Source: a virus. Taken from it: DNA of 64,000 nucleotides. A program made the position numbers and the translations under genes. Below, piece by piece: positions 32,865 to 38,177 of this stretch (position 1 is the first letter of the stretch; the number at the start of each line of letters is the position of its first letter). The stretch lies in IMG/VR virus record IMGVR_UViG_3300044695_004134, positions 102,194-166,193 of that record, one strand, 5' to 3'. The notes below the pieces were generated by a model. It did no database searches and had not been told where the DNA came from. It worked only from the letters and a program-made list of their open reading frames with translations.

Positions 32865-34304
32865 TTACAGCACTTTGTAACGGTCATCCATGATGGTTTT
32901 AAGCATCACAGTTTCTGGTGTGAAGGTTTCTAGGTCACCAGCAAGGAGTGGCTTAACCACGGCTGGAGAGAAACCAGACACCAGTGCAGTACCAGACTTG
33001 TCAAACTTCACAGGCGCATTGCCATATGAAGCGTTCAAGTTCCAGAATACAACCTTTGGAAGGGTGTAGCCTGCGGCTTCGTACTTTCGTGCGATCATTT
33101 GGATAGCAGAATCATCGTGGTTCACACATTGATTGAACTGCATATCTGACAGAATCAATACCATTTCTGGCATTTCATTCTGTGGAACACCGGCACCTAC
33201 TGCGGTAGCAAGGATTTTTGAAAATGCCTTGTTCAAGTCGGTGCTCATACCCCAATCAGACTTGATCATTTGATCAATCTTTTGGTTGATGTTACCTTTC
33301 AGATGCAACAACTCAGGGTTAGACGAGAAGGTCAAGAATGTATCCTTGAACTTACCGATGTTCTTGTCTGCAAGATACAATCCCAAAGAGACTGCAACTT
33401 CCATACATGACAACTTGCTGTTTGAACCATGGCCACCAGCTGGGGTTGACATAGAACCAGAAACGTCCACCAGAGGTAGGATGTTTCCATCGCCAACGTA
33501 GTTTGGCAGTGCTTCCCATTGCTTTTGGATCAAGTCCATTTCGGTCTTGTCGAACTTCACACCATAGCTGTTGATACGACCCTTCAACACATCGTATGGA
33601 TACACAGCGCCAGCGTTGACTTTTACTTCAACGGTGCGATCTTTTGGATCCTTCATCAGTTCTGCAACGTAAGCCGCATAAGCTGGAGAGTTACGGTTGA
33701 AAGCCTTCTTGTAACGGGAAGCCGCTACGGAAGGAACATGTGAGAAGTTAATGGAATCCCAGTCCTTTGCACACATGTTGGTTTCGACAACCTTGGTCAT
33801 TTCGACCAATGACTTACGGTAGAACTTTGGTGACATTCCGAAGAATGTACGGATTTCTGCCGCAATTGGACCTTGGCGAGGAGTCCACTTAGCCGCAAGA
33901 CCATTCTTTTCACGGAGTGCGTTACCAAGAATAGTGTATGCGACTTCTTTCAGTGCCTTGGTCTTGAAGACAAACAAGTCATCCCAACGACCCAATTCTG
34001 GCACTTTAGCCAACAGAGCCTTAGCGGCTTCTGTATCAGTATTTTCCAGGTACACTAGGATATCACGGAATAACTGACGTTCACCTGCACCGCCACGTGC
34101 ATCACGTAGCCATGCGGCAACACGGAGAGCCAATTCACGGTTTTCTGCCAAGGCAGCCGCAAATGCAGGCTTAATATCTTTTCCACGGGATGCACCCGCA
34201 TTGTAAAACAAATCTACCACCGCATTGGCGGTTGACTTGCGAGCCTTCATACCGTTTTCGGTACGGGCTTCTTGGTTCTTAACAGCTTCGACAAATGTTG
34301 ACAT
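32865..34304 (-). CDS. DUF2828-like TROVE/vWA (Ro60-like) protein
   Basis: RDARGGAGER, GRWDDL, AAKWTPR, FSHVPSVA; vWA MIDAS DVSGSM and LSDMQF; RBS AAGGAG before ATG 34304. Confidence 0.85.
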   Translation of the reverse strand: MSTFVEAVKNQEARTENGMKARKSTANAVVDLFYNAGASRGKDIKPAFAAALAENRELALRVAAWLRDARGGAGERQLFRDILVYLENTDTEAAKALLAKVPELGRWDDLFVFKTKALKEVAYTILGNALREKNGLAAKWTPRQGPIAAEIRTFFGMSPKFYRKSLVEMTKVVETNMCAKDWDSINFSHVPSVAASRYKKAFNRNSPAYAAYVAELMKDPKDRTVEVKVNAGAVYPYDVLKGRINSYGVKFDKTEMDLIQKQWEALPNYVGDGNILPLVDVSGSMSTPAGGHGSNSKLSCMEVAVSLGLYLADKNIGKFKDTFLTFSSNPELLHLKGNINQKIDQMIKSDWGMSTDLNKAFSKILATAVGAGVPQNEMPEMVLILSDMQFNQCVNHDDSAIQMIARKYEAAGYTLPKVVFWNLNASYGNAPVKFDKSGTALVSGFSPAVVKPLLAGDLETFTPETVMLKTIMDDRYKVL

Positions 34305-34322
34305 AATGAACTCCTTTTCAAT

Positions 34323-34441
34323 CAACAGGTTAAACTTTTTGCGGACCATTGTGCTACCATTACACTAGACCCCTAAGGGAGCCGGAATCGAACCGGTCTT
34401 TCGGTTTTATTTGCATTAAAAATTGTTGCGGAACTTAACCT
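34323..34441 (-). ncRNA. Y-RNA-like element 1 with permuted tRNA-like domain
   Basis: Stem AGGTTAA/TTAACCT plus GTTCCGCAA; cargo is T-arm, capped acceptor-like stem, D-arm. Confidence 0.72.
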
Positions 34442-34446
34442 AAAAA

Positions 34447-34555
34447 CAACAGAGTAGTTTGATTGCCTCCGTGGCACATCATCCGAGGGTGTCTTTCGAC
34501 TGGTGGATAATGCTGGAATCGAACCAGCTAGTTTGTGTTTTGCTGAACCTACTCT
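34447..34555 (-). ncRNA. Y-RNA-like element 2 with permuted tRNA-like domain and internal ACCA
   Basis: Stem AGAGTAG/CTACTCT plus GTTCAGCAA; GCTGG-TTCGATT-CCAGC, ATTATCC-ACCA ... GGATGAT. Confidence 0.72.
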
Positions 34556-34570
34556 AAAACTTTCAAAAAA

Positions 34571-34792
34571 TAACAGGATGGTCGGTTTAGTATTAATTGG
34601 TTTGCTCTAACCCCAGTGCTCCTTTCGGTAAAACCCACTGAAACCTGATAGATTACTATCATCTTTTCTGTCTTTCCAGAGTCATTATTTTCTTCGGCTT
34701 CATTGCCTAGCTACGTAATTACACCTTACGGTGGTCCTCCTTTAGTAGCGACTCTTTAGTACGTTAGTATTATTGAGTGCTGAATCCATCCT
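34571..34792 (-). ncRNA. Y-RNA-like element 3 with large multi-hairpin cargo
   Basis: Stem AGGATGG/CCATCCT plus ATTCAGCA; several GNRA-capped hairpins. Confidence 0.65.
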
Positions 34793-34821
34793 AAAAAAAC
34801 TTATATAATCTCCATATAAAG

Positions 34822-34850
34822 ATTATATCACGTTAAGTGTAATTTGGCAA
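34822..34850 (-). promoter_or_regulatory. Sigma70-type promoter for the ncRNA-DUF2828 operon
   Basis: TTGCCA-17-TATAAT with extended TG; upstream TGTTG-N8-CAACA palindrome at 34865-34882. Confidence 0.7.
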
Positions 34851-34882
34851 GGCTTTTTTTGCATTGTTGCCTAAAAACAACA

Positions 34883-34957
34883 TGGTGTCCTCGACAGGAA
34901 TCGAACCTGTATCCCATTCTTAGGAGGAACGTGTTCTATCCATTGAACTACAAGGAC
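34883..34957 (-). tRNA. tRNA-Arg(CCT)
   Basis: Cloverleaf, CT-CCT-AA, CCA. Confidence 0.9.
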
Positions 34958-37114: not shown

Positions 37115-37178
37115 CAACAGAATAGTTTTTGCGTTTTCAATTACAAGTTGAATGCTTTTTATTTGCTGAACCTATTCT
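37115..37178 (-). ncRNA. Y-RNA-like element 4 carrying an anticodon stem-loop mimic
   Basis: Stem AGAATAG/CTATTCT plus GTTCAGCAA; cargo TTCAA-CTTGTAA-TTGAA. Confidence 0.68.
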
Positions 37179-37183
37179 AAAAC

Positions 37184-37262
37184 TGGCTCCGTATCTGGGT
37201 AACGATCCCAGCTAAACATTGATTAACAGTCAAGCCCATGCACCATGCTCGGGTTCTACGGA
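37184..37262 (-). tRNA. tRNA-Asn(GTT), atypical D-arm and T-loop
   Basis: CT-GTT-AA; T-loop ATCGTTA; CCA. Confidence 0.78.
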
Positions 37263-37269
37263 ATAAAAA

Positions 37270-37336
37270 CAACAGGAAGGTTTTTGTCGCTAGACAACCA
37301 TAAAGTTTAGCTAATTTTGTTTGCTGAACCCTTCCT
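37270..37336 (-). ncRNA. Y-RNA-like element 5
   Basis: Stem AGGAAGG/CCTTCCT plus GTTCAGCAA; short hairpin cargo. Confidence 0.65.
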
Positions 37337-38069: not shown

Positions 38070-38070
38070 C

Positions 38071-38158
38071 TGGTGGAGCCTGAAGGAATCGAACCATCCG
38101 CCAACCACCCTCCAATTAAAGGCAACGGATTTACAGTCCGCTGAAGGGAACAGGCTCC
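38071..38158 (-). tRNA. tRNA-Tyr(GTA), lacking a canonical D-arm
   Basis: GCGGA-CT-GTA-AA-TCCGT, long variable region, TTCGATT, CCA. Confidence 0.68.
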
Positions 38159-38177
38159 AAAAATATGAGATTTATAC

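What the first reader, a model, noticed from the sequence alone, without database searches (positions are those of the whole stretch)
34323..34441. Element 1 cargo is a circularly permuted tRNA mimic (T-arm, capped acceptor, D-arm)
Seen, 5' to 3': CCGG-UUCGAUU-CCGG (T-arm), then CUCCC-UUA-GGGG (acceptor-like stem closed by a loop), then UA-GUGU-AAUGGUA-GCAC-A (canonical D-arm). The terminal handle takes the place of the anticodon arm. Known: this arm order matches bacterial YrlA tRNA mimics. Inference: a tRNA-elbow mimic that cannot be aminoacylated. Its 3' end lies just above the protein's RBS, so it could also autoregulate translation.
Basis: partly seen in the sequence, partly recalled or inferred. 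Interest (0 to 1): 0.8.

Follow-up and report, generated by a model that had tools for sequence, protein, structure and literature searches.

The report
Phage Y-RNA-like permuted tRNA mimic
A 115-nt phage RNA gene, just upstream of a gene for a Ro60-shaped protein, has a tRNA's T arm, a capped acceptor-like hairpin and a D arm in rotated order inside a conserved "handle"; it belongs to a widespread phage version of the known Ro60/Y-RNA particle that is absent from Rfam and that I did not find described in the papers searched.

Summary
On the minus strand, 34441-34327 encodes an RNA closed by a 7-bp terminal helix. Inside are a T arm with the loop UUCGAUU, a short capped hairpin, a UA linker and a canonical D arm, in the order T, acceptor-like, D. 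There is no anticodon arm and no CCA.

Twenty-three distinct relatives from 80 metagenomic phage loci keep this order. All 16 tested pairs are paired in every sequence, and 10 show changes on both sides.

The adjacent gene (32865-34304, Pfam DUF2828+DUF7788) folds with pLDDT 93.8. Its 13 best PDB matches are all Ro60 structures.

The RNA is therefore best read as a YrlA-type Y RNA. It is not a member of Rfam YrlA: there is no hit even at E<=10, and its 5' motif is GUUCCGCAA rather than GNCGAA. Its handle (UUUU leader, 7-bp arm, YUC(A/C)GCAA, A-run, arm, GUU) recurs in five elements of this genome. The same handle lies beside DUF2828 genes in phages of mycobacteria, Salmonella, Bacillus, Listeria, Staphylococcus and Campylobacter.

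Protein binding, processing and autoregulation of translation are inferred, not shown.

This scan has noted the same gene-plus-handle family before in many other genomes; I re-tested it here independently.

Verdict: real, a new variant of a known kind, moderately high interest.

The parts
34327..34441 (-). Element 1 RNA, arm to arm (115 nt). A UUUU leader lies at 34445-34442 and a GUUG trailer at 34326-34323.
   Evidence: Sequence. CM R1 scores 107 bits. It is one of five handle elements in the 166-kb genome.
34435..34441 (-). 5' arm of the terminal helix (AGGUUAA).
   Evidence: Pairs with 34333-34327. 7 of 7 pairs hold in 23 sequences, and 4 pairs change on both sides.
34426..34434 (-). Handle motif GUUCCGCAA (family consensus RUUC(A/C)GCAA); proposed protein-binding site.
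   Evidence: 84-100% conserved over 86 unique elements, although the RUUCMGCA core was a selection criterion. ACAGCAA-type versions occur in Faith1, Felix-like, Bacillus, Listeria, Staphylococcus and Campylobacter phages.
34402..34405 (-). 5' strand of the closing helix (ACCG), in the position of anticodon-stem residues 39-43.
   Evidence: Pairs with 34348-34345. 81.6% of cells are paired against 59% in shuffles, and 0 of 500 shuffles reach it.
34381..34397 (-). T arm: 4-bp stem CCGG/CCGG plus an A-C mismatch, loop UUCGAUU.
   Evidence: The stem covaries in relatives as CG, UA and AU pairs.
34370..34380 (-). Acceptor-like hairpin UCCC-UUA-GGGG, closed by a loop, with no CCA.
   Evidence: In relatives this hairpin is 0-9 bp, often 7 bp, and different in sequence.
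34366..34369 (-). Linker UC + UA. The UA corresponds to tRNA U8-A9.
   Evidence: UA is present in 18 of 23 relatives.
34351..34365 (-). D arm GUGU-AAUGGUA-GCAC, with A14, G18, G19 and A21.
   Evidence: 3 of 4 stem pairs change on both sides.
34345..34348 (-). 3' strand of the closing helix (UGGU).
34327..34340 (-). A-run (34340-34336), a G, then the 3' arm UUAACCU (34333-34327).
34311..34316 (-). Shine-Dalgarno AAGGAG of the Ro60-like gene, 11 nt after the 3' arm.
   Evidence: The arm-to-ATG distance is 15-26 nt (mode 22) in 71 of 79 related loci.
32865..34304 (-). Ro60-like protein gene (479 aa; DUF2828 + DUF7788/vWA).
   Evidence: Pfam. PHROG 850 'RNA-binding protein'. AF2 pLDDT 93.8. The 13 best Foldseek PDB matches are all Ro60.
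34822..34850 (-). Sigma-70-like promoter TTGCCA-17-TATAAT with a TG extension, upstream of elements 3, 2 and 1 and the gene.
   Evidence: 11 of 12 matches. No minus-strand terminator-like site lies between it and the gene.
34451..34555 (-). Sibling element 2: same handle, cargo with a T arm.
34575..34792 (-). Sibling element 3: same handle, cargo of about 190 nt.
37119..37178 (-). Sibling element 4: same handle, short hairpin cargo, between two tRNAs.
37274..37336 (-). Sibling element 5: same handle, short cargo, directly after tRNA-Pro.

Best explanation
Element 1 is a small non-coding RNA of the Y-RNA type, and its effector part is a rotated tRNA core. Computation shows the following. The 5' and 3' ends pair into a 7-bp helix next to a conserved single-stranded motif (GUUCCGCAA on the 5' side, an A-run on the 3' side). 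A short closing helix leads into a junction carrying a T arm, a capped acceptor-like hairpin and a D arm. These keep the nucleotides that form the tRNA elbow (G18/G19 with U55/C56, U54-A58, U8-A14). The rest is inferred. The RNA is probably transcribed from the promoter-like site at 34850-34822 together with elements 3 and 2 and the downstream gene, and is probably trimmed at the U-rich junctions. Its handle probably binds the Ro60-like ring protein encoded 23 nt downstream, in the way Y RNAs bind Ro60 through a terminal helix and a conserved 5'-strand motif. The exposed tRNA elbow would then recruit or distract a factor that recognises tRNA shape, such as RNase P, TruB/TrmA/Dus-type enzymes, an exoribonuclease as in the Ro60-Y RNA-PNPase machine, RNA-repair enzymes, or a host tRNA-directed defence nuclease. 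Because the acceptor-like stem is capped and lacks CCA, the RNA is not a substrate for aminoacylation as made.
For: The arms and the tRNA-invariant bases are present. The descriptor gives 1 hit in the window and 0 in shuffles. RNAalifold on a blind MAFFT alignment of 23 distinct relatives predicts the terminal, T, hairpin and D helices by itself. 100% of 357 cells are paired, 10 of 16 pairs change on both sides, 0 of 500 shuffles reach this, and slid controls give 42% or less. The closing helix is 81.6% paired with 0 of 500 shuffles reaching it. The 15/48 Levitt position covaries in relatives as A15/U48 and U15/A48. Re-permuted element 1 and 20 relatives are called tRNA by ARAGORN, none is called in native order, and 0 of 300 shuffled controls are called. 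The partner protein has a Ro60 fold: TM 0.54-0.61 over about 540 columns, E 2.6e-9, and the top 13 hits are all Ro60. The best PDB hits of the sequence profile are also Ro60/TROVE, though weak at E 0.008-0.2. A CM built only from this clade finds full-length matches beside the DUF2828 gene, on the same strand, in the Felix-like phage UAB_69 (2e-10), mycobacteriophage Faith1 (4e-10), Aeromonas PX29 (6e-8), Synechococcus BUCT-ZZ01 (9e-8) and Bacillus Nate (2e-6). In whole-genome searches of those five records the best hit is within 3 kb of the gene in four records, and a second hit is 220 nt from it in the fifth. The same handle lies next to the gene in 8 of 10 diverse phages. All five handle elements of the 166-kb genome lie within 3.1 kb of the gene. 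Literature gives related evidence: abundant ncRNAs are transcribed within 2 kb upstream of the homologous gene in Listeria phage CKA15 (PMC12282133), and Bas63 gp130 is described as Ro60-like and as countering the ppl defence (10.1101/2024.10.10.617714).
Against: No transcript, processing or binding data exist for this phage. Rfam YrlA (RF02553) does not match even at E<=10. The YrlA/Ro motif GNCGAA is replaced by a different motif. By sequence the protein is not a TROVE family member (phmmer against PDB finds nothing). In element 1 itself the T stem and the acceptor-like stem have only 4 bp each and the Levitt pair is not evident (A15 opposite G or A). The MFE fold prefers an alternative helix (AACCG with CGGUU) over the T arm, and the fold is not more stable than shuffles.
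Confidence: 0.75

Rival explanations
1. Element 1 is only a cis-acting 5' leader of the Ro60-like mRNA. It would be a tRNA-like operator that the protein, or a tRNA-binding factor, uses to control translation, and not a separate stable RNA.
For: The 3' arm ends 11 nt before the Shine-Dalgarno sequence, with no terminator-like site between. In 71 of 79 related loci a handle arm ends 15-26 nt before the ATG, and the other eight also show an arm end next to the RBS.
Against: The element next to the RBS can carry any cargo class in relatives, including a short hairpin or a 190-nt domain, so the tRNA-like part is not what is tied to the RBS. Identical handles occur 3 kb away between tRNAs. In Faith1, Staphylococcus and Felix-like phages the elements lie downstream of the gene.
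Confidence: 0.1
2. The handle elements are processing or insulating spacers of the phage tRNA operon. They would guide RNase E, P or Z cleavage, and their link to the Ro60-like gene would be incidental.
For: Elements 4 and 5 start right after a tRNA's CCA and end just before the next tRNA. Leader UUUU and trailer GUU are more than 90% conserved. In Felix-like, Bacillus and Campylobacter phages the elements sit in or next to tRNA clusters.
Against: In Faith1 and the Staphylococcus phage three tandem elements flank the gene with no tRNA within the 7.4-kb locus or only a distant one. The conserved internal-loop motif and the tRNA-elbow cargo are more than a cleavage signal would need. The genome-wide best CM hits track the gene.
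Confidence: 0.1
3. Element 1 is a decayed remnant of a junction between two tandem tRNA genes: the T arm and 3' acceptor strand of one, and the 5' acceptor strand and D arm of the next. It would have no function of its own.
For: Tandem tRNA junctions give the same T-acceptor-D order, and they produce false hits with both my descriptor and Rfam YrlA in Bacillus phage Nate. The D arm resembles that of the phage's own tRNA-Ala.
Against: There is no anticodon arm on either side. The hairpin is closed by 3-5 nt without CCA. Compensatory changes in every helix across 23 distinct sequences, together with the conserved handle, show selection on the fold.
Confidence: 0.03

Closest known systems
YrlA Y RNAs bound by bacterial or mycobacteriophage Ro60/Rsr (Rfam RF02553; Chen et al. 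2014, PMC4201824; structure 6CU1, Wang et al. 2018, 10.1101/312249)
   Same: A terminal helix is formed by the 5' and 3' ends next to a conserved 5'-strand motif. The effector domain has an optional variable hairpin, a T arm, a capped acceptor-like stem of variable length, a UA linker and a D arm. There is no free CCA. It is encoded within a few hundred nt of a Ro60-fold protein gene on the same strand. Several different Y RNAs occur per locus.
   Different: There is no match to RF02553 at E<=10. The motif is GUUCCGCAA or ACAGCAA and not GNCGAA(N)G. The partner is DUF2828/DUF7788, only 12-17% identical to solved Ro60 proteins, and not Pfam TROVE. The T and acceptor-like stems are reduced to 4 bp, and no evident Levitt pair exists in this copy. 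The elements are embedded in a phage tRNA operon with a fixed UUUU leader and GUU trailer.
Thermus phage phiLo Ro60 with Yrl1/Yrl2 (PMC12135203; PDB 9KOP, 9L5Y)
   Same: A phage-encoded Ro60-fold protein has two or more Y-like RNA genes directly upstream. It is the best PDB hit of the sequence profile and ranks 3 and 9 by fold.
   Different: The phiLo protein is a recognised TROVE protein. Its Yrl RNAs were picked by a CGAA motif and a stem-bulge-stem shape, and the paper does not describe them as tRNA-like.
Metazoan Y RNAs with Ro60 (PDB 1YVP)
   Same: The RNA is modular: a Ro-binding terminal helix with a conserved 5'-strand motif (GGUCCGA, compared with GUUCCGC here) plus a variable effector loop.
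   Different: Metazoan Y RNAs have no tRNA-like domain, are transcribed by Pol III, and belong to a different kingdom.
Circularly permuted tRNA genes (Cyanidioschyzon merolae type) and two-piece permuted tmRNA
   Same: The tRNA arms are encoded in rotated order.
   Different: Those genes contain all parts, including an anticodon arm or tag reading frame and a CCA end, and are processed into functional acceptors. Element 1 lacks an anticodon arm and CCA, and ARAGORN finds no tRNA or tmRNA here.

Membership tests
YrlA (Rfam RF02553) | Scores at or above the family's gathering threshold (69 bits) with the Rfam covariance model. | tested here: not met
   cmscan of 34250-34900 at E<=10 gives no YrlA hit. 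The model is in the library: it gave a 31-bit hit on a tRNA junction in L090.
YrlA (Chen et al. 2014) | T arm and D arm carrying tRNA-invariant nucleotides, in the order T, AS stem-loop, D. | tested here: met
   re-permutation test.
YrlA (Chen et al. 2014) | GNCGAA(N0-1)G motif near the 5' end, the presumed Ro60 contact. | tested here: not met
   The 5' motif is GUUCCGCAA, and the family consensus is RUUC(A/C)GCAA or ACAGCAA. It resembles the vertebrate GGUCCGA only loosely.
YrlA (Chen et al. 2014) | Encoded within 4 kb of a Ro60 ortholog and on the same strand. | tested here: met
   It lies 23 nt upstream of the ATG on the same strand. The same holds for CM hits in five other phages.
YrlA (Chen et al. 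2014) | The partner is a TROVE-domain (Pfam PF05731) Ro60 ortholog. | tested here: not met
   Pfam gives DUF2828 + DUF7788 only. The fold is nevertheless Ro60-like.
YrlA (Wang et al. 2018) | UA dinucleotide between AS and D stem, and a Levitt pair between D-loop position 15 and the last variable-loop base. | tested here: inconclusive
   UA is present, preceded by an extra UC. In element 1, A15 faces G or A, which is not a Levitt pair. Relatives have A15/U48 (about 10 sequences) or U15/A48 (2 sequences).
Ro60/Y-RNA ribonucleoprotein (function) | The RNA physically binds the Ro60-type protein. | not testable with these tools
   This needs EMSA, RIP or cryo-EM. Only genomic linkage and motif conservation are available.
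tRNA (RF00005) | Cloverleaf in the standard order, with an anticodon arm and an open acceptor stem. | tested here: not met
   ARAGORN and Rfam tRNA do not call it. It has no anticodon arm, and the acceptor-like stem is closed by a loop.

The most novel reading that the evidence does not exclude
Element 1 may be one cargo of a second, phage-borne Ro/Y-RNA system defined by a DUF2828-type Ro60-like ring and a universal stem-plus-(A/U)C(A/C)GCAA handle. Different tRNA pieces (elbow mimic, T-arm RNA, hairpins, acceptor-less tRNA-like RNAs) would be swapped in as cargo. The particle would use these tRNA look-alikes to neutralise host tRNA-directed defence nucleases, or to steer host tRNA-processing and repair enzymes, during infection.
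Probability: 0.25. Interest if true: 0.85.

Novelty: new variant of a known kind. Interest (0 to 1): 0.6.

Why it matters
Ro60 and Y RNAs are conserved from bacteria to humans, yet the job of the tRNA-like domain of bacterial Y RNAs is still unknown. The partner protein family here is very common in phages: 710 phage records and about 6,000 clusters at 50% identity. It is usually annotated as a domain of unknown function. Two papers have only guessed that nearby RNAs might be Y RNAs. Defining the RNA (handle, arms, boundaries) gives concrete constructs for binding, structure and knockout tests. It also explains some odd 'tRNA-OTHER' or pseudo-tRNA annotations in phage genomes. It links to a reported anti-defence phenotype of the homologous gene in an E. 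coli phage.

Tried and rejected
- **Rfam search.** A gathering-threshold search of the whole window and an E<=10 search of 34250-34900 found only tRNAs and chance hits, with no YrlA, Y_RNA, tmRNA or T-box.
- **Single-sequence folding.** It gave no significant stability and a competing helix in place of the T arm. It was therefore not used as evidence for the arms.
- **Sequence search of the protein against PDB.** phmmer found nothing meaningful. The profile gave only weak Ro60/TROVE hits, centred on the vWA MIDAS motif.
- **blastn against phage records.** It found no nucleotide-level relative.
- **Literature search for 'DUF2828'.** It returned only unrelated plant and tardigrade papers. The supplementary tables of Chen et al. 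2014, which list the 22 phages, are not held. I therefore could not check whether any DUF2828-type phage was already among them.
- **Mobile-element reading** (inverted-repeat arms as transposon ends). Rejected because the arms differ between copies yet always pair, and the flanks are a fixed leader and trailer and not target duplications.
- **Upstream in-frame ATG at 34349.** It lies inside the RNA and gives a 494-aa ORF. Rejected as the start because it has no RBS and homologs align from the ATG at 34304.
- **Descriptor hits in Bacillus phage Nate.** All but one were abutting tRNA junctions, that is, false positives.

Full report
**What is there**

The feature lies on the minus strand. Read 5' to 3' from 34445 it has these parts:
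- a UUUU leader;
- a 7-nt arm (34441-34435);
- the motif GUUCCGCAA (34434-34426);
- an A/U-rich stretch;
- a 4-nt strand ACCG (34405-34402) and four to five unpaired bases;
- a T arm, with stem CCGG/CCGG and loop UUCGAUU (34397-34381);
- a small hairpin UCCC-UUA-GGGG (34380-34370);
- UC and then UA (34369-34366);
- a D arm GUGU-AAUGGUA-GCAC (34365-34351);
- one A, then UGGU (34348-34345), which pairs with ACCG;
- CCGC, an A-run, the complementary 7-nt arm (34333-34327) and a GUUG trailer.

The Shine-Dalgarno AAGGAG is at 34316-34311, and the real start codon is ATG 34304. An in-frame ATG at 34349 inside the RNA explains the longer ORF.

**Is it more than chance?**

A descriptor requiring a T arm, a closed hairpin, a 2-4 nt linker and a GG-containing D arm hits once in the 64-kb window, at this site. 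It gives no hit in 20 shuffled windows. ARAGORN and Rfam do not call it as any known RNA. Thermodynamics alone is unhelpful. The MFE fold uses a competing helix in place of the T arm, and the z-scores are 0.18 to 0.84.

**Comparative evidence**

The downstream protein recovered 80 IMG/VR loci at 68-96% identity. In nearly all of them a handle-bearing element abuts the gene's RBS, but the cargo differs. About a third of the loci carry the T/hairpin/D cargo. Others carry a short hairpin, a T-arm RNA, a roughly 190-nt domain, or a normal-order D/anticodon/T module.

I aligned 23 distinct T/hairpin/D elements blindly with MAFFT.
- RNAalifold on this alignment predicted the terminal helix and the T, hairpin and D stems by itself. 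12 of its 18 pairs show changes on both sides.
- For the terminal, T and D helices, all 357 cells are standard pairs and 10 of 16 pairs change on both sides. None of 500 column shuffles reaches the observed values, and sliding the partner by 1-3 columns drops pairing to 27-42%.
- The closing helix is 81.6% paired, against 59% in shuffles.
- The capped hairpin varies from 0 to 9 bp with unrelated sequences. It is 7-8 bp in many relatives, directly abuts the T stem, and is followed by UA, exactly as in tRNA.
- Position 15 of the D loop and the base before the T stem covary in relatives as A/U and U/A. In element 1 itself the partner is a purine.

I also made a direct test of the "permuted tRNA" reading. 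I cut each element in the hairpin loop and closed the other side with the anticodon arm of the phage's own tRNA-Ala. ARAGORN then calls element 1 and 20 other modules as tRNA. None is called in native order, and 0 of 300 shuffled controls are called. The borrowed arm contributes to the score, so this shows correct spacing and arm quality and nothing more.

**The partner gene**

ORF 32865-34304 matches Pfam DUF2828 and DUF7788 and not TROVE. It also matches PHROG 850, 'RNA-binding protein'. It has relatives in 710 phage records, and the mycobacteriophage ones are annotated 'Ro-like RNA binding protein'. About 6,000 clusters at 50% identity match it. Plain sequence search against PDB finds nothing. 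A profile of 108 relatives ranks phage phiLo Ro60, Xenopus Ro and human RO60 first, but weakly (E 0.008-0.2). AlphaFold2 gives a confident model (pLDDT 93.8, pTM 0.92). Its 13 best Foldseek PDB matches are all Ro60 structures, aligned over the whole length (E 2.6e-9 to 9e-8, TM up to 0.61). Isolated vWA domains follow. The protein is therefore a highly diverged Ro60-fold protein: a helical-repeat ring plus a vWA domain.

**The handle is a family trait**

The 166-kb genome is a single contig with GC 38.8%. It has exactly five elements with this frame, all on the minus strand between window positions 34327 and 37336. Three lie in tandem before the gene and two between tRNAs. Over 86 unique elements from the related loci, several positions that my selection did not impose are 72-99% conserved:
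- the UUUU leader;
- the first two arm bases, AG;
- the AA that follows GCA;
- the 3' A-run;
- the arm end CCU.

The arm interior varies but always pairs.

The same design is found next to the DUF2828 gene in very different phages. It consists of a 7-bp arm, 2-3 nt, ACAGCAA, cargo, an A-rich strand and the second arm. It occurs in three tandem copies after the gene in mycobacteriophage Faith1 and in a Staphylococcus phage. It occurs in three copies before the gene in Listeria LMTA-57 and Synechococcus BUCT-ZZ01, and in two before the gene in Campylobacter CPX. It occurs in four copies in the tRNA cluster after the gene in the Felix-like UAB_69, and in three in the tRNA cluster before the gene in Bacillus Nate.

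A covariance model built only from the freshwater clade finds full-length T/hairpin/D elements in five phages:
- UAB_69, 2e-10;
- Faith1, 4e-10;
- Aeromonas PX29, 6e-8;
- BUCT-ZZ01, 9e-8;
- Nate, 2e-6.

Searched against those five complete genomes, the best hit lies within 3 kb of the gene on the same strand in four. In BUCT-ZZ01 the second-best hit is 220 nt from the gene. This is the same criterion Chen et al. used for YrlA (PMC4201824).

**Comparison with what is known**

YrlA RNAs are Y RNAs whose effector domain is a tRNA mimic, with the order variable loop, T arm, capped acceptor-like stem, UA, D arm, and no free CCA (PMC4201824; 10.1101/312249). Element 1 works like that by every structural criterion I could test. 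It is nevertheless not a member of the catalogued family:
- RF02553 gives no hit at E<=10. It also misses the Faith1 and Felix modules.
- The GNCGAA motif is replaced by GUUCCGCAA or ACAGCAA.
- The partner is not a TROVE protein by sequence.

Two papers have suggested, without defining any RNA, that RNAs near this gene might be Y RNAs. These are Bas63 gp130 (10.1101/2024.10.10.617714) and Listeria phage CKA15 gene 055, which has three highly transcribed regions upstream (PMC12282133). In mycobacteriophage LeBron the homolog is moderately toxic when overexpressed (PMC13148394). I found no paper or Rfam family describing the handle family. The supplementary phage list of Chen et al. is not available to me, so partial prior coverage of mycobacteriophages cannot be excluded. 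Notes of this scan report the same gene-plus-handle family in many other genomes. I treated these as leads, and the tests above are my own.

**Mechanism**

Shown by computation:
- a selected RNA fold with a tRNA elbow core inside a conserved handle;
- tight and recurrent linkage to a Ro60-fold gene;
- a sigma-70-like promoter at 34850-34822, with no terminator-like site before the gene.

Inferred:
- co-transcription with elements 3 and 2 and the mRNA;
- trimming at the U-rich junctions;
- binding of the handle to the ring protein;
- use of the elbow to engage a tRNA-shape reader.

The autoregulation idea rests only on the 11-nt gap between the 3' arm and the RBS. That gap is conserved within this clade, but the arrangement is not conserved across lineages. 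I rate it as possible but secondary.

**Verdict**

The element is a new variant of a known kind: a YrlA-like tRNA mimic with a different handle and a diverged Ro60-like partner.

Noticed in passing
window 38070-38160 (-): A tRNA-Tyr-like gene with anticodon loop CUGUAAA, a long variable arm and an encoded CCA. ARAGORN and Rfam did not call it. It has a canonical T loop but an odd D region.
   Followed up: partly
window 37185-37270 (-): A tRNA-Asn-like gene with anticodon loop CUGUUAA and an encoded CCA. It has an atypical T loop (AUCGUUA) and was not called by ARAGORN. Element 4 starts right after its CCA.
   Followed up: partly
window 34795-34890 (-): After tRNA-Arg comes a small hairpin with the GUUGUUUUUAGG leader but no handle motif, then the promoter-like site. 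An AT-rich hairpin followed by a U7 run overlaps the -10 box, just before element 3.
   Followed up: no
L023, L033, L055, L066 (97-98-nt elements listed): Relatives carry a different cargo in the same handle: a normal-order tRNA-like module with a small D arm, a 5-bp stem with a 7-nt anticodon-like loop, and a T arm. Here the handle replaces the acceptor stem.
   Followed up: partly
L088:1473-2024 (Listeria phage LMTA-57): A ROOL RNA match (RF03087, 88.5 bits, just under the gathering score of 99.1) lies about 1 kb upstream of the DUF2828 gene. Three handle elements lie between it and the gene.
   Followed up: no
L086:6720-7075 (Aeromonas phage PX29): Three tandem R1 hits overlap features annotated 'tRNA-OTHER' and a two-piece 'tRNA-Leu'. 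These are probably mis-annotated handle-bearing tRNA mimics.
   Followed up: partly
L085 (Serratia phage BF), L088 (Listeria phage): RNA ligase or RtcB-type 'tRNA-splicing ligase' genes lie within 1-2 kb of the DUF2828 gene, echoing the bacterial rsr-yrlBA-rtcBA arrangement.
   Followed up: no
window 34391-34406 (-): In element 1 the bases AACCG can pair with CGGUU of the T stem and loop. This alternative helix is preferred by the MFE fold, so it may be either a conformational switch or a folding artefact.
   Followed up: no
L010:1088-1192: One relative has lost the acceptor-like hairpin entirely, with only UAU between the T arm and the UA-D arm. The capped stem is therefore dispensable for whatever the core does.
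   Followed up: no
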